A stretch of DNA of 59,586 nucleotides, filler included, from Sluysia triapertura (taxonomy: Eukaryota): NCBI GenBank assembly GCA_046118255.1. It is 5 parts of 5 records of this genome, joined end to end, with 100 filler letters (N's around TTAATTAATTAA, not from the genome) between each part and the next. Parts side by side here need not be neighbours in the genome. Positions count along the whole stretch, not along the records: positions 36,588 to 47,481 come from JBJNIA010191852.1; 4 more parts are not named here. One strand, written 5' to 3'. Every line of letters begins with the position of its first letter. The first letter of the stretch is position 1. The translations under genes and the position numbers were made by a program. The notes beneath the pieces were generated by a model. That model made no database searches, was not told the origin of the DNA, and saw nothing but the letters and a program-made list of their open reading frames with translations. This document shows, piece after piece, positions 62 through 49,235 of this stretch.

Positions 62-1007
62 ACGAAGTCTAACACTTGGATAAAAGTTGACAATTTTAAA
101 ACGCATTTCTTTTATGTGTAAACAAAGAAAATGAATTTAAACAACGGTTAATTTTTTAAACTTTAAATTTAAAATTATTTATTTAATTAAATAAAACGTT
201 AGAGGTAACAATGATTTTATAGAACCGAATTATTCGATTTTATGTGGTTTCTTATTAAATGAAATCAATAGTTTGAATGAAATTTTAATTTGGATTTTAT
301 TTAGATTTCTATTTAACTGAAAGCTTTAACAACTCACTATAACAAAATTAAAAAATTCAAGGAAAGTTATTAATAAAAATTATGTTATCAAGCAAAAAAA
401 TAATAATGACTATAAAAATTTATATTTTATAAGAATTAATCTCGTTAATCCTATAGGTAAATTATATTAATAAATTAGTTTATTCTATCTATCGATTTAA
501 AAGATATGGATAAATATAAAATAAAATTTTAAGTGTAGTTTATCAAGTAATCCTTAAATGATTACGAAAAACTTATGATGAAAACTAACGGTTATTAATC
601 AGATTGATAATTATCTTCGGTAGGAACTCATCGAATTTACAAAAAACTGTAGAGCTTGTAAAACATTTTTTGTGTTAAGTTGTGAAAATTGTGAAAGCTT
701 ATGTAGTCAAATTATTATGGTCTACACAATTAAAAGAATCGCAATAAAAATTAAATACGAGATTATAAATAGAGTAATAGACGTGAGTGAAATTTAAAAG
801 AAATTTAGAAAAAATCCTTACAATTATGTCAATGAAATATGTTCGGTGGTTAATTTTATTATTTATTTGTATAACCTATACTAATTAGCGTTATCTGATA
901 AAATACATTTCTCTATTTTTAAGTATTACTATTATTATCAATGAAAAAAGTTTTCGAAAAACAAATATTCAGAAATAGAATTATCAATAATATATAATTG
1001 TTATTAG

Positions 1008-1251
1008 ACAAAACAATTCTTTGCTCTATTCATCAGCCAAGTTCTGATGCATTTGCTCTATTTGATGATATTTTATTACTCGGAGAAGGTCATGTCGTGT
1101 ATATGGGATCTGCAAAAGGAGCTACTAACTTTTTTAAGACTTGTGGTATTCCTTGTCCAATAAATTTTAATCCATCAGATCATTTTGTGCATGCAATTGC
1201 TGAACAAAATAATTATGGAGATGGTAAATCTTTACAGAACATGGTTACCAA
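1008..1251 (+). CDS. white: white/scarlet-like ABCG half-transporter, internal exon (H-loop region of the NBD)
   Basis: KTILCSIHQPSSDAFALFDDILLLGEGHVVYMG...CPINFNPSDHFV. Acceptor ttattag|1008 and donor 1251|gtatga. Upstream exons lie outside the window. Confidence 0.9.
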
Positions 1252-1257
1252 GTATGA

Positions 1258-1258
<1 letters not shown>

Positions 1259-1297
<39 letters not shown>

Positions 1298-1316
1298 GTT
1301 GTTGTTGTTGTTGTTA
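1259..1316. repeat. (ATT)n/(GTT)n compound microsatellite at the start of the intron
   Basis: Directly visible; it explains the poly-I/poly-V tail of ORF 998..1378. Confidence 0.95.
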
Positions 1317-2503
1317 TCAGCAATTACACTATTATATACTCTTGTCATATAGCTATTTATAAAAAGCTAAGAAAATAATTAATTAAATTTAAATTTAATT
1401 ATTTAAAATTAATTAAATTTAAAATAATTTCGCCTAAAAGTTGCACAACTAAGACCAAAGCAGTTGAAATTGTTTACGAAAAATATCGCTAAAACATGAA
1501 AATAATTATCTTGAATGCTAATTCAATCTCAGATATATCTCAGATATCTCATAATTAAAATAGCAATGTAAGAAAAAATATGATGATTTATTTAAAGTTT
1601 TTGATTTTTATTCACTTTACATAAAATTTATACTACCTTAATTTAAATTATAATTTTTCGTTCGATAAAGATTGAGGTACAATTACAATTATGAATCCAA
1701 TTTTTATTTTCTTTTAATGCAAAAAGAAAGAATTTTATTACTACTAGAATATAATTATAATTACTTATAATTACAAGTAATAATAGTAATAATAATAATA
1801 ATTAATATATAATTTCAAAATATAATAAAATAATAAAATTAAATAATTTGCTTACTTAAAATAATAAATATTGAAAAATAAATAGTTTTCTGCTAACTAC
1901 GAAATATGAATGTCATTGGACGGAAACTGGTATACAAATAAGTGAAATTTCAATCACATTCACAATACACAATTCAGTCACATTAATAAAGCTTAAGTTT
2001 CACTATCAATCATAATTTTTTAATTTACAAAATTAGTAAGTTTTTAACCCATTGTAGTATTATTTATTTAAATAAATTATGTGCCTGAAATAATTATTTA
2101 AAAGAAATTTCATAATAACAATTTTATTTATTAAATGATGCAAGGTGAAAAGAAAAAAAATAAATTAAAAGTCGAAGCAATCAGGAACACTTAAAATGTT
2201 TTAATTCTAAAATTCAATTGATTTCTATACTATACTAGATTGTTCTTTATATCTCGATTGTATTGTTATACTTGTTGTATATTATACCAATTTTATTGTG
2301 ATATAATATTTAATAGTCACATTCTTATATTATTATAATATTATTATAATAATATGGTTACATAATAGTCATTTTGTTTATTGTTAATTTGTAATTGTTT
2401 GTTTTATAATTACTTCATTAATAAAAGTTACGACTTATTCTTTAATATACCCTAAAAATAGAAAAATCAAAGAAAAAGTTGAAAAAAAATAAGAAATGAA
2501 ACT

Positions 2504-2874
2504 TTATTCAAATCCTGAATTTTCGAAGTCCAACTCACATTCATTGAAGAACCCTACTACATTTTCGAATTCTTTCCAATCCTCAGGTAACTTTTGCCCT
2601 ACTGATGTTACAATTCTTAATGATAATTGATTTCTTTTCGTAAATTCACTTATTTCTAATATTTTTACAAATGTTTTAGCTTCAAGTTTAATAGATAAAA
2701 CAGAAACTTTTATACTTTCTTTTAGTTGATTTAAAACTGAATTTTTTAATTCAGTCTTCCTCCTTGCTCTTTTTGTTATCTCCATCTTCCCAGATTAGCT
2801 TCATTTATCCCATAATGTCAACCTGCTTTATTTCCAATTTTTTTGTTTCTGTATCCCGAGTTTCTTTTAGTCAT
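2504..2874 (-). mobile_element. pogo/Tigger-family transposase relic (Brinker-type DBD + CENP-B HTH)
   Basis: Minus strand reads MTKRNSGY...IGNKAG*HYGINEANLGRWR, then (frameshift) ...FTKRNQLSLRIVTSVGQKLPEDW. This resembles the pogo motifs GNRAAARxFGxxExxVRxWR and FxxRxxLSLRxxTxxxQKLP. Disrupted by a stop and a frameshift. Confidence 0.75.
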
Positions 2875-3785
2875 TATTATGTAATTATTATTATTGCTCA
2901 AGTCGTAACACATGTATTTTGCACAAACTACGGCAACAACAGCATATACGTCGACAATTAAATATACATCTGAGTGAGCTAAATTGTGTGACATATTACT
3001 ATTTGCCATAAGCAAGCCAAGTTGTAAATTTTCTCATCAAGTAAGTTTATTTCTGGACATGTTTGGTAGTTGATCTTGCAAGTAAATTATTGATAAAATT
3101 ATGTTTCATATTAAACATAAGTTAAATAGAATTTAACTTCATTTGGTCGAAGCGAATTCCTATTAATTTTATTCAATATTAAGTGATGTTTAGTTTGAAA
3201 TAGGTGGTACGACTTACGAAACAAGTTGACTTAGTTGTACCGAAGTAAGTTTTTAAAGAATTAGTTTCATTACGTGAGAGTATATAGATTTTTCTAATTT
3301 AGTTATAATACATAACACCAATATTAACAAAGTGTTAGGTAACACATTTAATTTATATTTATTTGATAAATCCTAGGTTTTATACAGTTCTTTTCTTAAG
3401 GGGTACAACTTGAGCAACCTTACCCTACTAGTTAGATAGTTACTTTGAATTTCTTTGATTGAAATTAGAAATTTATTGTTTTTTTGGTTATTGTTATTTG
3501 GTAAAAAATTATTTTTCAATTTTTGTTTGAATCGATAATTTCTTCGAAATGTTATAACAAAGTCATTCATTTGGGTAGGAATAACTTATCAAATTCAAAG
3601 GATACTATTTTGATGCTTATGAAGACATTATCTTGAATTTTAAACATGTTCAGTTACACTTTTTCATGGATTTTTGATATTTTCCTTATTTTATTGCAAT
3701 TTTTATATAATTTTATTTTAAAACCATTGCTTAAGAATGTTTAAAAATTGGGGTATTAATTATAAAATACTGATAATGATATTGA

Positions 3786-3787
3786 TA

Positions 3788-3842
<55 letters not shown>
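3786..3842. repeat. (AAT)n microsatellite
   Basis: About 19 AAT units. Confidence 0.95.
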
Positions 3843-3843
<1 letters not shown>

Positions 3844-3896
3844 TTTTTCATCATCATATCATTTTGAACCTTGATCTCATATGTTTTACGTTGCAG

Positions 3897-3970
3897 ATAT
3901 CAAAAATCCGAGGAATGTAAAAGAATGCATAAATTAATTTCCGAAGTAATTGTAACGGGAATTAATCAAG
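3897..3970 (+). CDS. white: white/ABCG transporter, short linker exon
   Basis: ttgcag|ATATCAAAAATCC...AATCAAG|gt. Phase 2 in and phase 1 out match the flanking exons. Encodes (K)YQKSEECKRMHKLISEVIVTGINQ. Confidence 0.75.
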
Positions 3971-4173
3971 GTTTTTTATGTTGTTATATTTTAAATTTAA
4001 AATAATGTGACAAAAAATTGTTACTGTTTTGATTGGTAGAAACGCTTCTCTAAGAAGTTAATTTGATCAACAATACATTGTGATCATAAATAACAATTAT
4101 TTTAAGATATGACTTATATTTTCAGTATTGACATATTTATATACAATCTATAGTTGTACTAAAATCTAAAATA

Positions 4174-4253
4174 TTAACACATTATGAGCGGGGCGGGTAT
4201 TAGTACCCTTTTTATGTATTGTCACTTAAGAATACCCGCTCATAATGTGTTAA
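4174..4253. mobile_element. Minimal piggyBac-type MITE (72 bp between two TTAA sites)
   Basis: TTAA-CACATTATGAGCGGG(gcggg)TATT ... AATACCCGCTCATAATGTG-TTAA: a 19-bp inverted repeat with TTAA on both sides. Confidence 0.75.
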
Positions 4254-4529
4254 TACGTATAACATTTTGAAAAGTGGACACGAAAGAATTAATTATATAG
4301 ATGCTTTCTATACTTTTCTTCGAACTTTTCATATTATACGTAATCAGAAATATTGCCATGTACTCAAACTCTTTCAAACTAGTAAGACTTTGTACGCAAC
4401 GCAGAATTTTAAAGCTTAGAGAACCATTGAATTGGTTACCGTACTTTTTCAATTGTGTAATTTGTAAGTAACAAAACATTTGTGCATATTGATACTGATT
4501 TAAATATATTATTATATAATTCTATTTAG

Positions 4530-4760
4530 GAGTAAATAATGAAACAACATTGCATTTAAAAAATTACAAAATACAAAAATATCGTGTTGGCTGGTTTCGA
4601 CAAATGAAAGTACTATTGTGGCGTCATTGGATGACCATGGTACGTGATACTAATTTATTTGTAGTAAGATTGGGTCAGGTGACATTTTTATCTATCATGA
4701 TCAGTCTGTTGTACATGCAACAGGAAATTAATACAGCCGCTGGACAGTTTAGTATGAATG
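4530..4760 (+). CDS. white: white/ABCG transporter exon (start of ABC2 membrane domain)
   Basis: YRVGWFRQMKVLLWRHWMTMVRD...VRLGQ motif. Acceptor tatttag|4530 and donor 4760|gtaagt; phases are consistent. Confidence 0.9.
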
Positions 4761-4893
4761 GTAAGTTTAGACTGATTTGTATTGATTTAATTTTCGTGTC
4801 ACAAATTTATGAAAATTAAATAAAAGTAAAAATTAAACCTACTTATTTGACTGTTTTCAGATTACCTACCAGATTTTTATAAATGTTTTAACA

Positions 4894-5127
4894 TATTGGG
4901 TTGGGGCATAAATTCGTGCGATTTTATCTGTTGCAAAGAAAACCCACCAACTTCTTGTTTTAACTGATTTGAGTTATATTATTTATTTAAATCATTTTAG
5001 ACTAATTTTAACTTTCATTATTCTCATTAAAATGGAGTGTCAGATAGATAAAAATGAATATTTCTGACATCTACTCCTTTTCTATTTTAATCAACATTTA
5101 AACGTTGCAGAATATCTCACCGATTAA
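4894..5127 (+). mobile_element. mariner element 5' end (TIR + N-terminus of a dead transposase)
   Basis: TA-TTGGGTTGGGGCATAAA terminal sequence. The ATG at 5032 reads MECQIDKNEYF*HLLLFYFNQ, like the mariner transposase N-terminus (MECQVDKNEHFRHLLLFAFNQG). Confidence 0.8.
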
Positions 5128-5346
5128 GACTGATATATTTGTTTTTTCTAATGATTTAATAAATTCATTTTGCATCGTTTTTATTCTTGATCAGTATGCA
5201 CTTTTTAATAATTGTAAAAAAACCGTACAAACTGATGCACCAACCCAATATTTTAAGACAAAAATTAAAAATAATAATGTTTTCTTTTTATTACAATTTC
5301 GATTTTTGTTTTTGTTGGTGGTAAATTGAAACTTTACTGTAATTAT

Positions 5347-5580
5347 TTAACCACTTAACAGTCGAATTTTTTGAGAAAATGGATTTAAAAATGTCACTTT
5401 TTTATTTTTTTTATTTGACTACATTTATTAATACAATTAATTAATTACAATAAATTTACTCAATAAGTAGTTTTAGTATGATATATTTTGAAACATTCAA
5501 TGCCCGAATGAGACTCGGGATCGTCAGTGTACAAGAAAATGTCACACTCGAGTACAGTTCGAGTAAAACTGTCAAGTTAA
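5347..5580. mobile_element. Probable non-autonomous piggyBac MITE
   Basis: Left end TTAA-CCACTTAACAGT and a degenerate right end ACTGTCAAG-TTAA, with internal short palindromic motifs (cccga...tcggg, ctcgag). Confidence 0.5.
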
Positions 5581-5671
5581 GACTTTAAATAATTTTAAAG
5601 GAAATTTTTCTGATGTTATTTAAAGTTTTTGTACTTTTAAATAACTTTAAGTTGAAAATAAATTTCAAAGT

Positions 5672-6206
5672 TTAACCATTTTAGGACGGGCTGCCCAAAG
5701 ATTATTCGTTAACTAATAGGATTTGTTCAGAGGTCTTTATATCAAATTAAAGAATAATGATAAGAGCTTTCATTTGATACCAAAATATGTTGTATTTTCT
5801 AGAAGGATAAACTTTTTTGCGCGAAAGAAAATGATTAAAAAATTATATAAACAGTCATATGGTAAAAAAACACTTTTATCTGGATCTTTCTCTTTTCAAT
5901 GCACACTGCCTTTATAAGATACGAAAGGCACGTAAATATTTCACTTATGGACTTCAAGAAAGAATTAATTGGAAAAGTTTGAGAGGAAGACTATCATCTG
6001 AAAATCATTTTAGGTTGAGTGATAGACATTTCCCATCATTCATTTCTGTATCTGATCTTACCAAAAAAATCTTCAAAAAGTTTGTTTATTGTATGCAGTG
6101 TAAGAAGAAGACTAAATATATGTGTAATACTTGTAATGTTTCCCGATTGTTTCACTATATATCTCAGGAAAAAAAACTGGTAGATGAAGAAAAATCTTAT
6201 ATCTGA
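5672..6206 (+). mobile_element. piggyBac relic with transposase C-terminal cysteine-rich domain
   Basis: TTAA-CCATTTTAGGACGGG end. ORF 5859..6206 contains RLSDRHFP...CMQCKKKTKYMCNTCNV, the piggyBac CRD signature (RLxGxHFP..CxxC..TxYxCxxCxV). Confidence 0.8.
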
Positions 6207-6766
6207 CACATTTTGATGTCTTGCACAAAAATTGATTTTTAGTAAAAGCTAATCATAAGCATAAATCAAATTTTCCATATTATCACGATAATACATATAA
6301 TTAGAATCATTTACACGATTAGACTGAGAAAAGAAATTGACTGAGTAATAGAATTTAATATTAGGGATTCCGTTAATCTCAGAAAATTATTAAAGAATTA
6401 ATTTGAAGAATTTATTGGCCTTAGTGTAATATTGATAGAAAGCACTATAAGAAGCGCTGTTTTGTACATAACCTACTTAATAGCGATTCGCATAATCATT
6501 TTTATACATTGAATAATTATAATTGGATAATTGGTGCTTTACAGTAAGTACTATAACTAAATTTAGATAAATATTAAAATAATAAAAAATACAATTAAAT
6601 CTACAACAATTATGTATGATTCATTGTTTTTTCACATATTAATATCAATTTTGTTACTAAATATATCTTAGTGTATTAAGCGTTTAAAACTAAATTCTGA
6701 ACTTCAATTTCTACTTTATTATTATTACTATTATTATTGTCATTATTATTATTATTATCATTCTAG

Positions 6767-7494
6767 GAGCGCATTTTCTGGTCACAACAATGATGAGTTT
6801 TAACATATTTTACACAGTACTTAATTCTCTTCCTTCTGAACTACCTGTTTTCTTTCGCGAACATTCAGCTGGCATGTATCGAGTTGATGCATATTTTCTT
6901 TCTCGCAACATCACCGATATTCTGATATTTCTCATTCTTCCAACGATTTTTTCTGTTCTATTTTATAGTTTTGTATATGTAGATCATGTAGTGAGCAAAT
7001 TCTTCGTTCTTTGGAGCGTTACTATCTTAGTATGCTTTTGTTCAGTTTCCATGGGTTATTTTGTTTCCTCAATTGCAATGAATCTTGATCTGGCATTAGC
7101 TTTATCTCCACCAATAATATTTTTATTGATGATGTTTAGTGGGTTTCTAGTTTCTCTGGAAACCATTCCAGTACCTTTGAATTATATTCAATATATTTCG
7201 TGGTTCCGGTATGCATTTGAAATGTTGAGCATTAGTAATTGGTTGGGTTATACGAATATCACATGTATCGAAGAAGATCAAAATTCGGCACCATGTTACA
7301 AATCTGGTGAAGATATGATACGTTCTCTCAATTTAATACCGTCAAAAGATCAATATTTGATTGGATATCTAAGTTTAGTTACCATGATTGTTGTTTTGCG
7401 ATTACTGGCACTTTTTTGTCTATATCTAAGATCACGTGAAACCAAAAAAGTGGTCCTAGATGATGAACTTATCGATACAAACGCAAGTTCTTGA
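6767..7494 (+). CDS. white: white/ABCG transporter, terminal exon (ABC2 membrane domain)
   Basis: Splices to give NGAHFL. Contains ELPVFFREHSAGMYRVDAYFLS, LMMFSGF and YISWFRYAFE plus several TM helices. Acceptor ttctag|6767, stop TGA at 7492-7494. Confidence 0.93.
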
Positions 7495-27897: not shown

Positions 27898-28429
27898 ATG
27901 GATTTAAACAATAATGCAATCTACCAAATTGTTTGCCAAAGTGGTAATGGAAAAACACTTTATGTAAAGTACTACAAAGTAATAAGTTTAAAAATAACTT
28001 TAATAAAATATATTAACATGAAAGTGGGTATGGAAAAACAGGATTAACTCAAACCGAATTTTTTAAATTAGAAAATACTAAATCTTTGAAGAAAATTTGT
28101 CAAGCAGATTACAAAAACATGATGTCATCGTTATTGATGACTTATACCAAGAAGCTAATAAACAAGATGATCTTAATAATTTATTCTCTATAATAGCTAG
28201 ACATATAAATGTGATTCTAATTTTGTTTTATCAAGGTGGTAATCATACTCGAAATTTTAATAATTTAATAACATTTAATAATCATAGAGATCAAATTGTA
28301 ACAGATTATATAGCATGACAAGCATTTCCGCATGTTATTTTTAATTAATGCTTTTCATAAACATATCCCGATGAAATGCGTATATATACTAATATTTTTA
28401 ATCATAAAAATATCACTTATTATAAATAA
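27898..28429 (+). mobile_element. Maverick/Polinton (adintovirus-like) packaging ATPase, pseudogenised
   Basis: MDLNNNAIYQIVCQSGNGKT (degenerate Walker A), VIVIDDL (Walker B), LFSIIARHINV, FNNHRDQIV...A*QAFP and YPDEMRIYTNIF. The motif order matches Maverick A32/FtsK-like ATPases. Frameshifts and stops are present. Confidence 0.78.

Positions 28430-36587: not shown

Positions 36588-36640
<53 letters not shown>
36424..36640. repeat. (ATT/AAT)n microsatellites flanking an assembly spacer
   Basis: Directly visible on both sides of the spacer at 36488-36587. Confidence 0.9.
36488..36587. other. Assembly spacer N44-TTAATTAATTAA-N44
   Basis: Identical 100-bp linker. Confidence 0.97.
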
Positions 36641-36643
<3 letters not shown>

Positions 36644-38076
36644 TTAATATAAAAAATTAACAAAATAAGTACGTAATAAAAAAGAACAAGTTTAACTCTT
36701 ATTTTAATTTTAGAAAGAAGTAGCTCCACTACACAAAAGCAAACACCTTATTAGCGCATTATCACAAATTTAATAATTGTTACATTTATTCACTTTGAGA
36801 GTTTACTGGATTTTAAAGTTTTGTTTTCTATTTTAACAAGACGTCGTTGTGTGTATTTAAGTATGAATGATGTTTCTAAATTTTCGATATTAGTTATTCG
36901 TAAAAATAATCGTGTACTTTCATTGTTACTTTAATTTACATCCTTAAATTCATTAAAAGTTTCCAATAAAAGATTACAAATAGATTTAAAATGTCGAATC
37001 AGTTGAGGAGCACTCGTCAAATGATTTAATCCTTTCGTGGTCTAGGTGACTACAAGGCATTATTAATAATTTTAGATGGAGTAGGGTAGGTTAATGGTGA
37101 CGTCGAATAACTGCACCATGATATAATTATTGGAATGCTCAAAACTGAAGGTTCTAGATAAATTAATGGAATATCTGGCACAAAACAATGTATTTAAGTC
37201 CAAACAAATTTTGTACATGTTATAAATCGAATTTTGTATATATTCTTGAGGTGACTTGTCTATTAACACATTTATTTTGGACTTAAGTTATTCTATGGTA
37301 ATTTGGCTAGTCATATATGCTTATCTATCTAATAATGTTTTGCATAAAAAATCATAACCATCTTCAATGGCTTTACTAACGTTTCCTATATAAAATTTGC
37401 TATTATTCAGTCCTAAATTATTTATAATCTTATAGTTACAATTTTTACTAAATTTAGAACCGGCTTAAATCCTGTCAGAACGTATCTATTTGATTTTAGA
37501 GGGATGATTAAATTAAAATAATTATAAAGTGAAACAAAAAAACAGAAATTTCAATTTCATAAAAAAGAACACAAAAATAATTTAACATTAGTCAAAAAAT
37601 TCTGATTTTGATTTCCGAATTTAAATTAGATACCATAAAATTTGAGGAAATTAACACAGACGGTAATTTTGTTATATCATGTTTCATTGCCATATGAAGC
37701 ACTTTTGTATATTTAACTAATTTTTCTTCGATTAATACTTTTGGAATTAGTGGTCGTTTATTCTTTCTATGATGTTTAATGGCATCGCCTCTTTCTTATT
37801 TCCTTTTATAAATTTTAAATTTGTTTTCATCTATTTTTATTTTTTATTAAGATTAAGAATTAGTTTGTTGACATTTTTATCAAAATTACTATTTAAAATT
37901 ATTATTATTATTTAATTATTTTGATTTTACATTTAATTAATGTTTATTTATAACAGGACTATAAAATAATAACAAAAATAATAATTAGTAATGACAATAA
38001 TAATATTAACGCCATGACACTAAAAATCTTAATAATGTCCTACATACTTTTGTAAGTTAATAATTGTTTGTAAAAA

Positions 38077-38356
38077 TGTAGTTACATTATATTTCAAAAT
38101 TTCAATTCCACGCATAAACAATTACTCTCTAACTTGTTGACAATATACAATAATCTGTAAATAATCTATACGACAATTTACACTTTCATCTATTCTTTCT
38201 ATTTCCAATTCTGTCGCATTTAATAATAACATTTATGAGAAAGAATGATAGTATAAAGTACATAATAAATATGGATAAAACTGTACTGGTCCGAGATCTA
38301 GTCATTAATCGTATTATTCTATCTAAATCTATCGCAATTATATAATTCCGTCTACA
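38077..38356 (+). repeat. Candidate 5' LTR (280 bp)
   Basis: Inverted termini TGTAG...CTACA, with internal TATA-like and AATAAA motifs, upstream of gag/pol remnants. No matching 3' LTR or clear PBS was seen. Confidence 0.3.
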
Positions 38357-40263
38357 ACTTTAAGAGTAATTAAATATACAAAACAAAATGAAATAAGCAA
38401 GCTGTAGTTAAAGTCATTACGATGAACACATCTTGAGATTATCTGTACTGGATTTATTCTAACTGGTATTGCGTTGACTCGGGAAATAATTGACAATTTT
38501 CTTCCATTAATATTAAGTGTAGATTCAATTTGTAACTTCTAATTTTTTAACTTCAGTAATTAAATGATAATCTTGAAAAGTATTCAGATATTCATATAAA
38601 CTAGCAAATATAAATGGCCTAACTCAGCAAAAAAATTAGCTTATCAATGGAAGAACAATAAATAAAATTTTAAAAGATTGTTGAAATACTTCTTCGTAAG
38701 CATAAAATTGTTAGGTAAGATGATTAAAATTTTAAATTGACAAAAAATTATTGGTTTTACATATATAATCAGATAACAGTAAATATTATTCACATAAACC
38801 GAATAATAACAATATTAATAGCAAATAATAAAAATAAATATAACGATAAATAAACAATACACAAAATGAATAATAAGTACGAGAGAATAACAAGATAATA
38901 AAGGAAGAATAAAATAACACAATGTAGTAATTTACTTATGTTATTTGGTAACAAGAACTAATTATTGATTGAGATTATACCCGACGCTTAATATGCTCTT
39001 TGTAATAATATTATTGGCTATATTTGGTATAAATGGAACAAACTGAATAAAAACCAGAAATTGTTATAAAATTTTCTTTGCTTGATAATGAGGATTGTCC
39101 AGAATCGAAAACTAATCGAATCAGAGTGAAGGATACTAAAATTCTGAATGTGTATGAAGAAGGAAATTTGGTGACAACGTTAGTAAGTGAGTGTACAATA
39201 CAACTAAAAGAGCTGTGGGGCAATATGGTACTGCGAACACTACAGCTATTCATCAGTGATTGAACTTCAAATGTATTAAAAATATTTAATATATTACTTA
39301 ATAATTGTAGAGGCGTGTATGAACCAGTTGCATAAACTTATATAAATGTGATAAACTTAGAATAAGAAATAACGAAAAAATAATTTATAATATTCAAACT
39401 GACGGTAACGTACGATTTCGAGAAATATGGGAAAATGATCTATAGAATACGAAAGTAAATTTTATCATAACGCCGTTGCAAAGAAATTTGTAGTAAGTTT
39501 TTAAATGAATGTTTTGACATTGGAAAACATGTTGTGACATGGGAAAATCTAAGAATTAAAGAAATTCCAATGTCCACTAAAAGTTAATTTAGTATCTGGA
39601 TTTGCATATCAAGATAATGATGAGATTCCGATAGAATAAATAAATATAAGACAAATAAATTAAGAAAACTGAGACTTTAAAAAGAGAAAAAGATGAATGA
39701 AATTGAAACTCCAACATTTTAATGGCCAATTATCAAACGACTTGATAATATGATGTGACAGAGAGACCATGGAAACTAATTACCAGGGCATTTATCTGTC
39801 AGAACAACTAATACAACACGCTAAAAGGGGAGTTGACAAATATAAAATTAAACACATACTTTAATAGTAAAAGACTTTTACTATCCTTGGAAAAATATAT
39901 CAAATTATGGTAGCTCGAAACAGCTAATTAAATAAAGAGATGTTACGTACCAAGTTGTCTGTATAAATTACCAATCCTGATTTAGTAGTACCATTTAGTA
40001 ACACCATTAGAAGAAGTTCTCTACAAATATAGTGTAAAAAGGTAGAGGTGCAGATAAGGCTAGAAAGGAATGTGCTATATGGTAAGTTTCAAACATACGT
40101 GAAACCAGCAACGCGTGTAATATTTCCAGGCAACAAAATGAAACCCAAACCAATGCATTGTTTAAGTGTAATGACTCAAGAATAAAGAACTGAGGACAAT
40201 CTGTGGATATTCCTACCACATAGAAGTCAGGTTAAGAAACCCGAAGTGATAGACTTAACAGAT

Positions 40264-41060
40264 TTGAAAGGTGATCCAGCAACTTTTCACGATGTACGAA
40301 TTCCGTGTTATCAGGATGTAAATATGTTATATTATATATTGATGATATAATAATTTTTTCAAAAGATTTAGAAACCCATGTGAAGGATATTGACAACATC
40401 TTAAATAGGCTAAAGGTGGCTAGACTAAAAATAAAACCTTTCATGTGTTTGGACAGAAAAACAAGTTGAATTTTTAGGGCAAATAATATCATTAATATCA
40501 CATAATGTATTAAGTCGATTCATAGAAATTTCGAAAAAGTAATTAAATTTAAACAGCCTAGTAATATAAAAAAGGTTCAATGTTTCTTGGTACTCGTAAA
40601 TTATTATAGAAGGTTCATAAATAATTTAGCAAAAATTGAAAAAAAATAAGGAAACTAATCAAAAAAGATATTTAGTTCAAATGGACAGGCAACTGCATTT
40701 GCGCAATTAAAAGAAAGACTGACTACGGATTGCCGGATGTTAATAAAACTTTTATATTAATCGCAGATGCAAGTAATTATGTCATTGGAGCAATATTAGG
40801 ACAAAAAGACGGTAATAAGCTCGAAACAGTTAAAGCTTATAACCTAGACTATCCTACTATAGAAATAGAATGTTTGGCTATCTTTATGCTTGTAAATTGT
40901 TTAGAAACTCTTTGGTCAAAAAGTTTACCGATGCATACCGATCGTAAACCTTTAACTTATTTGCATAATCACAGGTTTGAAGTAAGTAGATTAAGTAAAT
41001 AGTTTAGAATTCGATGTGGAAATTATTTACAAACATGGTAATCAAAACAATGAAGCTCAC
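40264..41060 (+). pseudogene. Gypsy pol: reverse transcriptase + RNase H remnant
   Basis: LKGDPATF/RCTNSVLSGCKYVILYIDDIIIFSKDLETHVKDIDNILNRLKVARLKIKP; VQCFLVLVNYYRRFI; PDVNKTFILIADASNYVIGAILGQ; YPTIEIECLAI; HTDRKPL. Confidence 0.92.
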
Positions 41061-41260
41061 AAATCTAGATAGTAAAAGGAATATAAATTTCATGCTAGTT
41101 GTGATAATCTCGAGTAAAATAGGAAATAAAGGATAAAAACTCTTCTATATTAGATGTCATGACAAAGGGCACAATAAACGAACACAAATTAAAAGATTTA
41201 CTTTTACCGATGAAGGCAGAAACTTATCTGCAAGCAAGACATTGTCAAAATTAATATTAT

Positions 41261-41880
41261 TTGGAATTCACGGAAAATGTCATCAAAAATGGTTTAAAGA
41301 CTAAATATGCAGGATTAAAAACAAAAGTGCTATTAAAACCCATGTTTATACCATTATCAATCATGGAACTCGTGCACATTATGGACATAATGGGTTCACT
41401 TCAGAAAAAAATTAGCGAAAATAAATACATTGTTGTGCTTGTGGATTACTTAACCAAGTGTCCTGAGGCGCATCTGGTAGCACAAGTCTTAGTGGAAAAG
41501 AATATCTACAGATGCGGTACTCACAGATCAGGGCACGAATTTTACAAGTGGAATAATCAAATCTGTTGAAAAGATTTTTGATATCTTAAAAATTTATACT
41601 TCACCGTGCCATCCCCAAACTAACGGACCAGTTGAAATATTCAATAAGACACTAACAAAAACGTTAATGATAAACAAAATGTTAATGATATGTTAATTAT
41701 AAACTAAATGATTGGGATTTATACACTGCCGAAGTTCTATTCATCCAGCAACCAATTTTAGACCATTTTACTAATATGCGGCAGAAACTCAAATAAGCCT
41801 GTTGATTTGGACTGGATACCACCAACATCTCAATGTTTAGAGGTGCCAAAATATGTAAAATTTATGCGAGAAACTTTACA
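41261..41880 (+). pseudogene. Gypsy pol: integrase (rve) remnant
   Basis: DIMGSL...NKYIVVLVDYLTKCPEA; frameshifted TDQGTNFTS...YTSPCHPQTNGPVEIFNKTL. Confidence 0.9.
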
Positions 41881-42060
41881 AAAAGATGGAATCGAGAAGG
41901 TTTACAGATAAAATGCTCTCAAGAAAATACTCATCAACCTGTTCATTAAAAATCCAAATAATAAACGCTGACATGCGAATTACCACCAAAATAAATTAAA
42001 AATTGATAAAACGATTTTAAAATTTAAGCCAAAAAGCAAGACCGTGATAAACCACTTTCG

Positions 42061-42330
42061 ATCCATTCATATATTTCAAACCTATATCTAAACGGCGGAT
42101 GGATTAAAGCTGACGTCGAAACTGGTGCCACAAAGTGAGGTGGGAAATAGTTTACAGTGACAATCGAACTCCAGTAGATATTAACGGAATATTATTATGT
42201 TTTATAACAATTTATAAGCGTATAAAAGCACATAAGAGTATATATAATTTTATGGGCTAGTAGCCTATTTGAATATATAATAGGAATGGATGTCATCGAA
42301 GAACTTTATGACATGGTAATTCATAGAAAA
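42061..42330 (+). pseudogene. Retropepsin-like aspartic protease remnant located downstream of integrase
   Basis: LYLNGGWIKADVETGAT (cf. INGxxxxALVDTGAT), flap-like SDNRTPVDINGILLCFITI, and FEYIIGMDVIEEL (cf. ILGMDFL), with correct order and spacing. Confidence 0.7.
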
Positions 42331-43093
42331 TACTGTTTTGTAAAACTAACGCAATGATCACATATGATAGTATCGCAAATTATTGTCAACATATTGGTGA
42401 GGAATTAACTTTGTTATTAACACCAATTCCAGATTTAGCCCTGCAATTTTCTGAATCCGTAACACAACTTACCAAATTCAGTAGTTTCACTGCCAGAATT
42501 ACCTTATTTTCAATTTCCCGATCTAAGTCATTTTTTCAATCAGTAGTATCATCTGAAGAAACCTCGGATTCGTGTGGGATAAGTTTTAATGCTTGTAACT
42601 ATCATAAATAAGAACAGAAAAAATAAAGGACATTCTTTTCGGATGAAGAATATTATTACACTCATAAAAGTTGCAGAACATTAGCAAGAATTTAAAATAT
42701 GAATGTAGCTACGAATAATGGAAAGGAAAAATCATGATTACTAATTTTTATAATCACTACTGGAAAATAGTATACTTTTGGAAAAAGTTAATCTTAAGAA
42801 ACATTTTGGAGGTATGTTGTATTTATCTAAATCCATTAATAATTTGTAAACCACACCATATTGACCATATACCGCGCTGTCTGAATTATGCGTAAGATCT
42901 ATGTTAATAGGATTTACTCTAGATAATGCGACAAATACAAATAGAAACTTCATAGAAAACACCACAAAATGCATCAAAAAAACATTGACAAGATAACTAG
43001 TAAGATAACTCGTATAAGCCACTCCATAAGAAATATTTCAAGAAAAATTCGCTAATTTATGACAATGTACAATCCACTTATAAATTATTTATA

Positions 43094-44310
43094 ATGTTAT
43101 TATCATTCACCATTTTATACGTCCGTTGGACTAAGTTTTATTTACTCAATTTCGGTAAAAACCTTAGAATGCACAAAAATAATGGAAATCTATACATGTG
43201 GCGAACCACCACCGCCAATCTATGAATGCCAACCGAAAACCACGGCCCACTGATATATGGCAGTTTCAAGTGACAAATTTAAGTTCCACTCTGATTGTTT
43301 ATGTTTGTATGTCACGTATTTCTAACACGCACGCATTATTAACAAAAGCATATGTAGAAAACCCTATGGCAAAGAATTTTCAACCTCATTTAGCAACAGA
43401 AACTGGTCAGATTCAAACTTTCGAAGAAATGAAATCAACTTGTATAAAATGTTGCATAATGAATTGGTGTCAAATGAATCCCATATTAGTAATTATGTTT
43501 TTTATTGGATAATAGTTTGTAGTAATCTTTTCGAGCATAAGATGTTTCATATTCGAATTCGAATACGAACCGAAACATCATTCAAAATTCATGTTAGTGC
43601 AAAATCATAAGATTCGAACTAAACCCTTTGCCTTTTATTAGTTCTACACAGCCATCGAATGTCCAGTGTTGATTTATAGATGTGCTTGAGATATTATTCA
43701 GATAAATAATCCTCTAAAAGATAATGCTGCTATTGTGGCATACTCATTATGGATTCATAAATCCTATTTCAAATATATGATTACACCAAATATACGATAC
43801 AGTATTAAGTAGAATAGAAGCACATGATACGGATGATTTTTGGTTAAATATGATTTAAGAATGTAGTGTTTCAACCACGCACTATAATCCCATTGTCGTT
43901 CTCATACATAAATTCACACAACTCATAATTCTACATATTACTACTTCAACTCACGCAATATAAAATCCTACACTAAAATATATTTAAATTATTAACCGTT
44001 AAATTTACCAGCAATTATATTACATCACATGAACGTCACACATTATTAATTCATTGTACTCGGCATAATTCATAAATTATAAAACTTCAGGTCACAAAAT
44101 CTTGTAACAAAAGCAAATTAATTTGATAAATTATAGTAACCAAATACGTAATATTTTGCTTGTGTTGCATCAGTCCTCATCATCGCCATTATCAGTTATC
44201 TTTTTATTTATTTATGTATCAATTTCAAGTACGAAACAACAGACTCCGGGCTCAATGTGTTAAATGAACATCTTTTTCGTAAAATTACCTATTTTCTCAA
44301 AAATTGTTTT
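43094..44310 (+). pseudogene. env-like (membrane glycoprotein) ORF remnant
   Basis: Hydrophobic N-terminus MLLSFTILYV; Cys-rich segment ECTKIMEIYTCGEPPPPIYECQP...HSDCLC...INKSICRKP with NxS/T sequons; C-terminal TM-like YFACVASVLIIAIISYLFIYLCI (44152-44220). Confidence 0.5.
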
Positions 44311-47300
44311 TTTATTAAAAATAAGTTTTAATTGAAATTTACCTATTAATTAAAAATTATATAAATTAATTAAAAATTATTAATTAATTAAAATTTTGTT
44401 TTAATGTGTCATCATTTCCGCAATAATTTCTTTTATTAGTATTATAATTATAATTTTATTTTTAATTTTAATTTTATAATTATATTTTATATTTCAATTT
44501 ATATTTTTATACACATTCTAAAAAATACTATGTAATGAATTTCTGCAATTTTCTAAAAAATATATTCGTATTACTGCTCAGATGATGTACATTCACGATA
44601 AAAGTTATTGAGACTTTAATTTCAAATATTATGAGTTTTCTTATGCAAATGTTAAACAGATTCCAAATAGATTACAACATTCTTAGAGTTGAAGCAATTC
44701 TCAAAATTAACGTTATAAGAGATCAAACATTTCTTCGAATTAACGTTGACAGAGATGAAATATTTCTCTGCGATTATGTTTTTAGAGACGAAACTTCTCA
44801 CAATGGAATCCGTAAAGGGTTCTACACTAATTCAAAATATTTTTAGAAATATTAGTAATTTTGAAAATTGTTCTCAACCAGTTCGACTAATGTTTGTAAA
44901 ACTGTTCATTACATTTGTTAAACGTTAAATAATCATGTTATACGCAGCAAATTGTTTAATTTGTAAGATGACTTAAGACATTGTGCTAATTTAAAATATT
45001 ACTATGAACGTTCTCAAAGTGTATTACTTACTGAATTTCCTTGTTTCTTTTTTCGAAAGATTCAGATAAAGAGCTATAGATTAAAATGTTTAAAGTAAGT
45101 TGCACATTTAATGACTATTGTGAGTCGTCCGTCTTTAAACAATAAAACACAAAGACTACTTAAAATTTTAAATTTGAATTCTCGCGAATTAAACGTTAAA
45201 AGAGTACATGCTTATGAAGTCTTGTGCTGTGGTTTTTCTAGCACTTAACCTACGGCAAATTATTTTTTAGCAGGTTTCGTTGGCACTCCTATAACTAACA
45301 AGTTAAAGATTACTTTAAAATAATGTCTCTGCTAAATAAATTAACTTAGGAGGGTCTTCATCTACTAAATAAACTTAATAATTTAATAATCAATTAACAC
45401 AAAAAATTAAATTATTTATTAGACAAAATCTACAAAAAAGTTATTAAATTCAGAGATTAGAGTATAGAAATAAAAATAAACAAATATTATTAAAGATTAA
45501 AGCTCCGAGAGCATTTAATCTAATTTTAATCAAACTTTACGTTGAGTTTACCCCTCATATATCGGGGACTTATAAAACTTTATAAATTAAATGATAATTT
45601 AAGTATATTTTGCGATTTTAACTTCAAAAGTTAAAATCCAACCTTACAAATATATAAATTACCAAATTCCAAAATCGCTATCCAAATTCCAGTATTATCG
45701 CGATCAGTTTGAAGGCATTAAAATCCAAAAAGGTGACTGATGAAAATAACTAATATGGCGACTATTAACTACGATTGATTGATACAAGATGGCTGATTAA
45801 ATACAAATGGCGATTTTCATTGTATGATTCCAGTTTATATACTAGTCATCATCCAATGAAAATCGATGGAATGTTCTAAAATATTCTACATTTTAGAAGC
45901 TTCTAATCTATTTTCAGAAGCTTATTTTCTATTTTCGAAATTTTATTTTCTTTTTTGGAAAATAAATTTCTTTTTTGGAAAATAATTGTTTTTTGAGTAA
46001 TTTTACAAATTAATAATTGATTTTCAAGTATTCTATATGTTTTTAATTAATTTTTTATAATTCTAAATATTTTAAATTAATTTTAAGTTATTATTTTATC
46101 ATTTTTAAATCATTTTAGAGGGTCGTGATTGCAACCTAACATAAGTTAAGCATCACTTTTCAAATAAAAGTGTATGTATTATTATTTCCTTGTATTAAAA
46201 ATTAAATAAATTCATTAAGTGTTTTATTCAAAAAACTAACTTACAAAATGATTTTAATGTAGGGTTTTTCTGTATTAAGCGATTTATATCCTTAAAGAAG
46301 ATGTTTCTGCAAAATTTTTACAAAAATTCTGCAATTATAAATGCTTGTTTCGTCTATATTGTTCTGATGGTTTTTCCTAACTCAACGATGAATTTACCTT
46401 TATTTACGCTAACAATATTGATCATGATTTTTCTTAATTAATGTGTTAATTAACTTTATCTTTAAGTATGTTGTGTTATATATAAGCTTATAATTTCTTA
46501 TACTAACAATTATAGTGTTTATCTTATGGGTTCGCCTGTAATTTGTGATTTATATCTCTGTGGAAGACATAATTGTAGGATTTCGTCAGTTAACAACGAA
46601 AAGATTCCCTAATCTTTGCTATGTAATAAAATTTTCCTTACTAATAGCTAGTAAGTCTTTCACAACACTTACAGTTTATTTTACTGTTAAGCTTTTATAA
46701 ATAATGTTTAACGAAATTTAAAATTATCTCTAGATTTCGCGTTTTGGGAGGACTTAAAACTCTTTAAAGTTATTCAAACTTATTAAACTTTTAAAGTTTA
46801 ACCAATTAACAATTAAAATAGGCTTAATGTCTTTAAAAACAAGAATTAACTTTAAAGACATATAAACGACGAAATTTTAGTTTTTTTATTTAATAATATA
46901 AGAATCAAAAACATAAAAATAACATACATGATTGTTTGTATAAAAGCAGAAATTATATTATCTTGTAACATTAGAATTGCCAAACATTTTTGACAGTTTT
47001 GTTTGGTAATTAAATTTGAAAACATTGTTAAAATCTCCTTTCAAACCAATTATTCAGTAAATATTTTCATAAACTTTTTAATATTGATTTTTTTAAGGTA
47101 AGTTATTAAATAATATTAATTTTTATAATTTATTTTCATTTTATAATTTCAGGTGATATCATTTATAGAAATAATAATAGTTTTAATAGTAGTACTAGTA
47201 GTAGTGATAGTAGTATTTTTAGTAGTAATTACAATAGTAGTAGTAATAATAATAACCATATATTTTTAATTAAATTTTGTTTACTGATTATTTTAAGCAA

Positions 47301-47424
47301 CTAAAATCTAAATAAAAATTAAATGTAAAATAAACAAAAATAATAAAAATATTTTTAATAATAATGATAATAATAATAAGTATAATAATAGTCATTATAT
47401 TATTATCATATCAAGATCATTAAT

Positions 47425-47427
<3 letters not shown>

Positions 47428-47461
<34 letters not shown>
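47428..47461. repeat. (TA)n microsatellite near the contig end
   Basis: Directly visible. Confidence 0.95.
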
Positions 47462-47464
<3 letters not shown>

Positions 47465-47481
47465 CACTACCCTTATTATTA

Positions 47482-48623: not shown

Positions 48624-49235
48624 ATGTTCGTTTTGTCAATATTAACTTATTTATGGTACGGGTTAGCTCTTTTATTGATTGTATTATGTCTTTCGTTTGG
48701 ATTGTATTACTTAGCAGAAATAGTTGAAGAATATACAGTTGCTACTGGAAGAATAATAAAATATCTAATTATTTTCGAGTTTGCTTTAAATTTTGCATTT
48801 TTATTTTTGAACGAAATATCCATTTATTTAATTCTCATTTCTTTCGTAACTAATGGATTTTACTCGATTATGCTTAAAACATATCCTACTTTTTATTACA
48901 CTTCATTCTCATTTATCGGAAGTTGTATTTGTTGTATATTATATCATTACGTTGCCTTTAGGTGTATAGTAATAAATTTGCCTGGTTATGAACATATTGA
49001 TTTTGTCAGTATACTGACCTATTTTACATTTTGCATTTGGCTGATACCTTTTATGTTTATATTGAGTTTATCTGCAAATGATTATTTATTACCTCAAACA
49101 GTATCTAAAAGTAGAAAAGAAATAAATATGTTTGATGACAGTTTCGGAGTAATGAGGAAAAAAAGAAAAAACTTTTTAGGTATAATGAAATTTATAAAAG
49201 AAATTATATTTGGCAAAAGTATTCGGACTTTTTAA
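48624..49235 (+). CDS. TEX261: TEX261 / Svp26-family ER-Golgi transmembrane cargo adaptor, single exon
   Basis: GLYYLAEIVEEYTVATGRIIKYLI and CIWLIPFMFILSLSANDYLLP signatures; intact 203-aa multi-TM ORF from ATG to TAA. Confidence 0.93.
   Translation: MFVLSILTYLWYGLALLLIVLCLSFGLYYLAEIVEEYTVATGRIIKYLIIFEFALNFAFLFLNEISIYLILISFVTNGFYSIMLKTYPTFYYTSFSFIGSCICCILYHYVAFRCIVINLPGYEHIDFVSILTYFTFCIWLIPFMFILSLSANDYLLPQTVSKSRKEINMFDDSFGVMRKKRKNFLGIMKFIKEIIFGKSIRTF

What the first reader, a model, noticed from the sequence alone, without database searches (positions are those of the whole stretch)
38077..44310. Retrovirus-like Gypsy element with non-canonical order RT-RH-IN-protease-env
Seen: pol motifs in Gypsy order, then a retropepsin remnant after integrase, then a Cys-rich ORF with a hydrophobic N-terminus and a C-terminal TM segment, all on the + strand within one contig. 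Known: canonical Ty3/Gypsy is gag-PR-RT-RH-IN, and env capture has occurred several times in invertebrate LTR elements. Inference: this is a decayed copy of an env-bearing, possibly once infectious Metaviridae lineage with a protease-env module after integrase. It is the best candidate here for an undescribed system.
Basis: partly seen in the sequence, partly recalled or inferred. Interest (0 to 1): 0.75.

Follow-up and report, generated by a model that had tools for sequence, protein, structure and literature searches.

The report
Scrambled envelope-bearing Gypsy retroelement remnants
This is a dead, frameshifted patch of retrovirus-like jumping DNA in an animal genome, holding half a reverse transcriptase, an integrase, a protease remnant and a broken herpes-gB-type envelope gene in front of them (likely with a piece of a second one behind), and it is likely a patchwork of two or more elements of an already described kind rather than one element with a new gene order.

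Summary
Partly confirmed, re-interpreted. RT (C-terminal half only), RNase H and integrase are real, and a retropepsin remnant does follow integrase at 42079-42339 (best two-motif score in the window, 0 of 300 shuffles). A second, different gB-type N-terminal fragment likely lies at 43706-43986. No LTR pair. Env-before-pol Gypsy elements with gB-type env are published for flatworms, nematodes and bryozoans (PMC13524379), and the upstream env resembles the planarian type. Best reading: a decayed mosaic of at least two such elements. A native integrase-protease-env order is not excluded (about 13%), because no other copy could be examined.

The parts
38077..38980 (+). Unassigned upstream stretch; possibly decayed leader/gag of element A. 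No LTR partner.
   Evidence: Capsid C-terminal-domain profile at 38150-38448: z 2.4, 3 of 200 shuffles, 6 of 120 tiles (weak); whole capsid, zinc knuckle and IN C-terminus not detected; no LTR pair.
38984..40251 (+). G1: decayed gB-type (chuvirus-like, class III) envelope glycoprotein gene, signal-peptide-like start, truncated at about position 454 of 663 of the profile
   Evidence: Profile 1-454 end-to-end: 8.7 vs shuffles -128.6 +- 13.8 (0 of 60), other tiles 0 of 84; Pfam PF24664 E 0.0044; three hhalign pieces colinear; four conserved Cys in register; middle part 113-274 alone not significant (30 of 100).
40252..40263 (+). Junction: G1 joined in frame to the middle of RT; env C-terminus, protease and RT N-terminal half are missing here
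   Evidence: G score peaks at 40251, RT score peaks when the profile starts at position 150 = 40264; G 455-610 not found after the junction or at 43700-44300.
40264..41057 (+). RT C-terminal half, connection and RNase H (Ty3/gypsy type), frameshifted
   Evidence: Pfam RVT_1, RT_RNaseH; profile score 426, 10 frame segments; z 27.7.
41381..42088 (+). Integrase core and C-terminal region up to about the GPY/F motif; HHCC zinc finger not detectable
   Evidence: Score 275 over 41381-41925; extension to 42088 z 2.4, 2 of 60; last 45 residues and HHCC region at background.
42079..42339 (+). Retropepsin (aspartic protease) remnant directly after integrase; catalytic position altered, four stops
   Evidence: Two-motif test best in window, 0 of 300; whole-domain z 3.2; no Pfam/PDB hit.
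42327..43610 (+). X: about 430 codons of former coding sequence of unknown identity, with an isoleucine heptad (42984-43049)
   Evidence: ORFs of 94, 73, 109, 94 aa, 0 of 500 shuffles; only 7-position Ile heptad in the window, partly made by a 12-bp tandem duplication at 42990-43014. No match to RT N-half, F-type env, capsid, Pfam, 1.84 billion representatives, ESM atlas; AlphaFold single-sequence models pLDDT 39 and 47.
43706..43986 (+). G2: likely N-terminal fragment (about 110 residues) of a second gB-type glycoprotein, unlike G1 in DNA
   Evidence: Profile 55-112: z 4.7, 0 of 200 shuffles, 0 of 119 tiles; two conserved Cys in register; positions 1-60 and 100-210 not significant; found post hoc among 23 block tests; G1 vs G2 DNA score 35 vs 37.7 +- 5.9; hhalign on single frames not significant.
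44158..44220 (+). The GC-raised block ends at about 44300.
   Evidence: Rank 34 in the window; GC 25-30% up to 44300, then 6-11%.

Best explanation
The locus holds dead, frameshifted remnants of a gB-type envelope gene, half an RT, RNase H, integrase and a protease, and is likely a mosaic of at least two envelope-bearing Ty3/gypsy elements of the env-before-pol type described from flatworms. Element A (likely gag - env - pol) is 38984-42088: a deletion likely removed the env C-terminus, the protease and the RT N-terminal half and fused env in frame to mid-RT. Protease - X - G2 (42079-43986) is likely a piece of a second, divergent element brought next to A's integrase by nested or adjacent insertion plus deletion. 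When intact, such an element would make a capsid, cut its polyprotein with the protease, copy its RNA with RT/RNase H, integrate with IN, and its trimeric class III fusogen would let particles enter neighbouring (e.g. germline) cells; these steps are inferred from the families and none is possible in this copy. Shown: domain identities and order, the env-RT junction, absence of an LTR pair. Inferred: element boundaries, two source elements, history of deletions, infectivity.
For: G1 lies directly upstream of pol on the same strand and in frame with RT. PMC13524379 (sections 5 and 14) reports GAG-ENV-POL Ty3/gypsy elements with gB-type env in Nematoda, Bryozoa and Platyhelminthes. By eye, G1's N-terminus fits the six Schmidtea mediterranea env rows of that paper's supplement better than insect or nematode rows; a short motif written from those rows occurs once in the window (39150), in 0 of 100 whole-window shuffles and in 0 of 120 ant-type G proteins, and a relaxed form hits only G1 and G2 (shuffle mean 0.09) (written after seeing G1, so not an independent test). 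One junction is proven, so the locus is rearranged. G1 and G2 share no DNA similarity, as expected of two families. No LTR pair. RT does not follow the protease. None of 43 relatives with enough sequence after IN reached the window's protease score (best 32.2, a non-protease ORF).
Against: No gag is demonstrable before G1. No boundary or target duplication was found between IN and the protease, which begins almost exactly where IN similarity fades. X is unassigned, and protease - X - env is not the order of any element I saw, so element B needs either an unusual order or a further junction. G2 is a post hoc, moderate signal. The relatives examined are distant (40-60% identity in short pieces) and come largely from soil metagenomes, so they say little about this family's own order. 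The host phylum was not determined.
Confidence: 0.6

Rival explanations
1. Native non-canonical order: the protease is a genuine C-terminal domain of pol (RT-RH-IN-PR), or a native PR-X-env cassette follows integrase.
For: The protease starts within about 10-20 nt of the GPY/F-like end of IN, same strand, no spacer or repeat between; base composition is uniform from 39000 to 44300; no protease before RT; X and G2 follow without a visible break.
Against: The stretch where a canonical protease would lie is deleted, so its absence says nothing; the last ~45 IN residues are not detected, as a junction would give; no relative with this order; a single element would carry two unlike env genes; no paper found.
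Confidence: 0.13
2. G1 does not belong to the pol next to it: it is the 3' env of an ordinary gag-pol-env element, and the locus is three or more unrelated fragments in a transposon heap.
For: Intact gag-pol-env Gypsy elements with this env family exist (L001: gag, PR-RT-RH-IN, G; also PMC13524379). No gag shown before G1.
Against: No IN C-terminus upstream of G1 (z 0.8); G1 fits the planarian env-before-pol type and not the ant type; the junction is in frame (one chance in three by luck).
Confidence: 0.15
3. The family order is gag-PR-X-env-RT-RH-IN (env captured between protease and RT); the locus is the 3' part of one element followed by the middle of a relative.
For: Explains protease - X - G2 as one piece and env directly before RT with only a short deletion; needs the fewest junctions.
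Against: No protease and no X-like sequence upstream of G1. The nematode elements are recalled (Sacco et al. 2022, not read) to have gag-env-pro-pol.
Confidence: 0.07
4. Assembly chimera of repeat copies.
For: Draft assembly in short pieces; repeat DNA; read support could not be examined.
Against: The copy is old and heavily frameshifted, so it should assemble as unique sequence; no N inside 36588-47481.
Confidence: 0.05

Closest known systems
GAG-ENV-POL Ty3/gypsy 'errantiviruses' with HSV/gB-type env of Platyhelminthes (e.g. Schmidtea mediterranea errantivirus 1-6; Chary and Hayashi, PMC13524379)
   Same: gB-type env immediately upstream of Gypsy pol; N-terminal env motif and Cys spacing alike (by eye; motif count).
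   Different: Here env is truncated, gag and LTRs are not demonstrable, RT is half missing, and a protease, an unknown ORF and a second env fragment follow integrase.
Hymenopteran gag-pol-env Gypsy elements with chuvirus-like glycoprotein (L001; PF24664) and Anakin BEL/Pao elements
   Same: Same env family (Pfam PF24664; profile match).
   Different: Their env follows integrase; about 19% identity to G1; 104 of 120 carry a different N-terminal motif.
F-type errantiviruses (Drosophila gypsy/ZAM kind; L123, L142; PF12259)
   Different: No F-type env signal in 42330-44300.
Nematode ERVs of Sacco et al. 2022 (seen only as cited in PMC13524379; gag-env-pro-pol order recalled)
   Same: Env before pol in a metavirus.
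   Different: Nematode env rows in the supplement lack G1's motif (by eye).

Membership tests
Ty3/gypsy (Metaviridae) | RT-RNase H-integrase order, gypsy-type RT and RH | tested here: met
   pieces match gypsy relatives better than caulimovirus loci.
Ty3/gypsy (Metaviridae) | Protease before RT | tested here: inconclusive
   Absent, but that stretch is deleted together with the RT N-half.
Ty3/gypsy (Metaviridae) | Paired LTRs, PBS, PPT, target duplication | tested here: not met
   No LTR pair, no convincing PBS or PPT; expected of an old fragment.
Ty3/gypsy (Metaviridae) | gag with capsid and zinc knuckle | tested here: inconclusive
   Weak capsid-CTD signal before G1; nothing significant in X.
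Ty3/gypsy (Metaviridae) | Placement in an RT phylogeny | not tested
   RT survives as ~50-residue frame pieces; only pairwise identities were taken.
gB-type env errantivirus, GAG-ENV-POL form | gB/chuvirus-like glycoprotein | tested here: met
gB-type env errantivirus, GAG-ENV-POL form | env directly upstream of pol in one element | tested here: inconclusive
   Adjacent and in frame, but across a deletion junction.
gB-type env errantivirus, GAG-ENV-POL form | Complete ectodomain with C-terminal TM; multicopy intact element | not testable with these tools
   C-terminal third missing here; no host genome held.
F-type errantivirus | Baculovirus-F-like env with furin site after integrase | tested here: not met
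   Profile of 18 baculovirus F and 2 insect env: 46.9 vs 40.2 +- 3.7 (max 50.6 of 40); end-to-end z 1.0-1.2.
Troyka | No env; CG..CG termini | tested here: not met
   PMC12440569 states no Troyka encodes env; env remnants are present here.

The most novel reading that the evidence does not exclude
A lineage of env-before-pol Gypsy elements in which the protease has moved to the C-terminus of pol, behind integrase (gag - gB env - RT - RH - IN - PR), or which carries a second protease plus an unknown coiled-coil protein and a second gB-type envelope after integrase.
Probability: 0.13. Interest if true: 0.65.

Novelty: new member of a known kind. Interest (0 to 1): 0.3.

Why it matters
As read here it is a fossil: it shows that planarian-type gB-env Gypsy elements of at least two families once lived in this AT-rich animal genome, which may extend their host range if the host is outside the taxa of PMC13524379. 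If the protease really sits behind integrase in the family, it would be a pol domain order I found no report of (searches) and would ask how a C-terminal protease matures an env-containing polyprotein.

Tried and rejected
No host genome is held, so no other copy could be collected. One public run holds 0.93 of the stretch's words and may be the source data; read or contig depth was not obtained. Homology searches with window pieces found nothing: 1.84 billion representatives with one frame of 42001-44301, word searches, viral contigs ([wrong frame, my error], 113), ESM atlas, PDB. By eye I took X in turn for a C-type lectin, an F-type env, the missing RT N-half and a gag capsid; lectin got no Pfam hit and the other three failed profile tests; a six-residue identity with one gag (E 0.002) is post hoc. 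Local alignment to the narrow ant-G profile was not significant; the block scan put the N-terminal block first of 394 tiles and the end-to-end test was decisive. Of 92 window pieces scanned with Pfam two overlapping ones hit PF24664; a coiled-coil hit at E 0.0024 shows that such an E-value alone is not enough. AlphaFold models were too poor to search. Earlier-findings look-ups were empty.
Full report
Setting. The window is AT-rich animal DNA in pieces joined by N linkers; the finding lies in the piece 36588-47481. Host genes nearby are an ABCG transporter exon and an Erv26-family ORF. No genome is held. A block of raised GC (about 0.28-0.37 against 0.23) runs from about 39000 to 44300.

Pol. 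Pfam finds RVT_1 (profile 130-186 only), RNase H and a weak integrase piece. I fetched 120 metagenome loci with a shared integrase motif and viral-collection loci and built profiles for frameshift-aware alignment. RT-RH aligns at 40264-41057 starting at profile position 150, just after the PFG motif, so the N-terminal half of RT is missing; IN aligns at 41381-41925, weakly to 42088. Ten and seven frame segments show an old, dead copy. No other RT or IN lies in the window.

Protease. With blocks from 19 relatives' proteases, the pair at 42118/42283 is the best in the window (44.5 vs 25.6; 0 of 300 shuffles) and the whole domain scores z 3.2. Intact proteases score 74-151 (18 of 19) and one non-protease ORF reached 32, so this is a real but worn remnant. 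There is none before RT.

What follows the protease. 42327-43610 was coding (0 of 500 shuffles) and holds the window's only isoleucine heptad, partly due to a 12-bp duplication. It is not Cys-rich and matched neither RT N-half, F-type env, capsid nor any database. Of 23 profile blocks tested on this region one stood out: the N-terminus of a gB-type glycoprotein at 43706-43986 (z 3.7; z 4.7 for positions 55-112, 0 of 200 and 0 of 119). Positions 1-60 and 100-210 do not match, and single-frame hhalign is not significant, so G2 is likely, not certain.

The missed envelope. 39841-40290 hits PF24664 (E 0.0044). L001, an intact gag-pol-G Gypsy circle, gave 120 relatives; a profile from 59 of them, aligned end to end over positions 1-454, scores 8.7 at 38940-40300 against -128.6 +- 13.8 for 60 shuffles, and none of 84 other tiles reaches it. 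Local tests were weak and the middle third alone is not significant. Four conserved cysteines are in register. Similarity stops at 40251 and RT starts at 40264 in the same frame; the env C-terminus is found nowhere. G1 and G2 are unalike in DNA. No LTR pair.

Literature. Chary and Hayashi, PMC13524379: I read the abstract and outline, passages, part 1 of 2 of sections 5 and 6, section 14, rows of supplementary files 2 and 7 and parts 1, 5, 6, 7 of 114 of file 3; figures and the other parts were not seen and may show protease position or further env groups. It reports F-type and gB-type env in Gypsy elements across animals and GAG-ENV-POL order in nematodes, bryozoans and flatworms, and says other orders were not searched. 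G1's N-terminus resembles the six Schmidtea rows by eye; a motif written from them hits G1 alone, a relaxed form G1 and G2 (post hoc). PMC10084718 (passages) found such glycoproteins mostly beside fragmentary Gypsy copies. PMC12440569 (parts 1-3 of 5) excludes Troyka. Sacco et al. 2022 was not read. Searches for a protease after integrase gave nothing (listings only for 25, 61, 67, 100, 107).

Verdict. The simplest account is a decayed mosaic: element A, env then pol, with an internal deletion, and beside it protease - X - second env from another element. The life cycle (capsid, proteolysis, reverse transcription, integration, cell entry by a class III fusogen) is inferred from the families. 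The protease abutting integrase without a visible break keeps a native non-canonical order open at about 13%; only other copies can settle it. Novelty: new member of a known kind. Interest 0.3.

Noticed in passing
L001 1-9150: Intact, apparently circular Gypsy element with gag, PR-RT-RH-IN and a chuvirus-like glycoprotein after integrase; fits the hymenopteran gB-type errantiviruses of PMC13524379.
   Followed up: partly
L123 1-8383; L142: Gypsy elements with Baculo_F env (E 5e-39) after integrase.
   Followed up: partly
L007, L010, L012, L017, L020, L022, L024, L027, L038, L046, L052, L059, L063, L066, L080 (about 700-1800 nt after the integrase motif): A small ORF of 150-310 aa directly after integrase, alike by eye in about 15 of the 20 ORFs printed; two tested have no Pfam family. 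A recurrent accessory ORF of these largely soil-metagenome Gypsy elements.
   Followed up: partly
window 998-7494 (+): Multi-exon ABCG (white-like) transporter gene; its introns hold short ORFs that look like decayed DNA transposons (2504-2794 minus; Cys-rich 5835-6206), by recall only.
   Followed up: partly
window 48624-49235 (+): Single-exon Erv26/TEX261-family ORF (Pfam E 1e-37).
   Followed up: partly
window 28082-28318 (+): 78-aa ORF that recalls a Polinton/Maverick packaging ATPase (Walker B-like stretch); recalled resemblance, not tested.
   Followed up: no
window 44705-44767: 33-bp tandem repeat inside an 86-aa ORF just beyond the element; possibly another repeat family.
   Followed up: no
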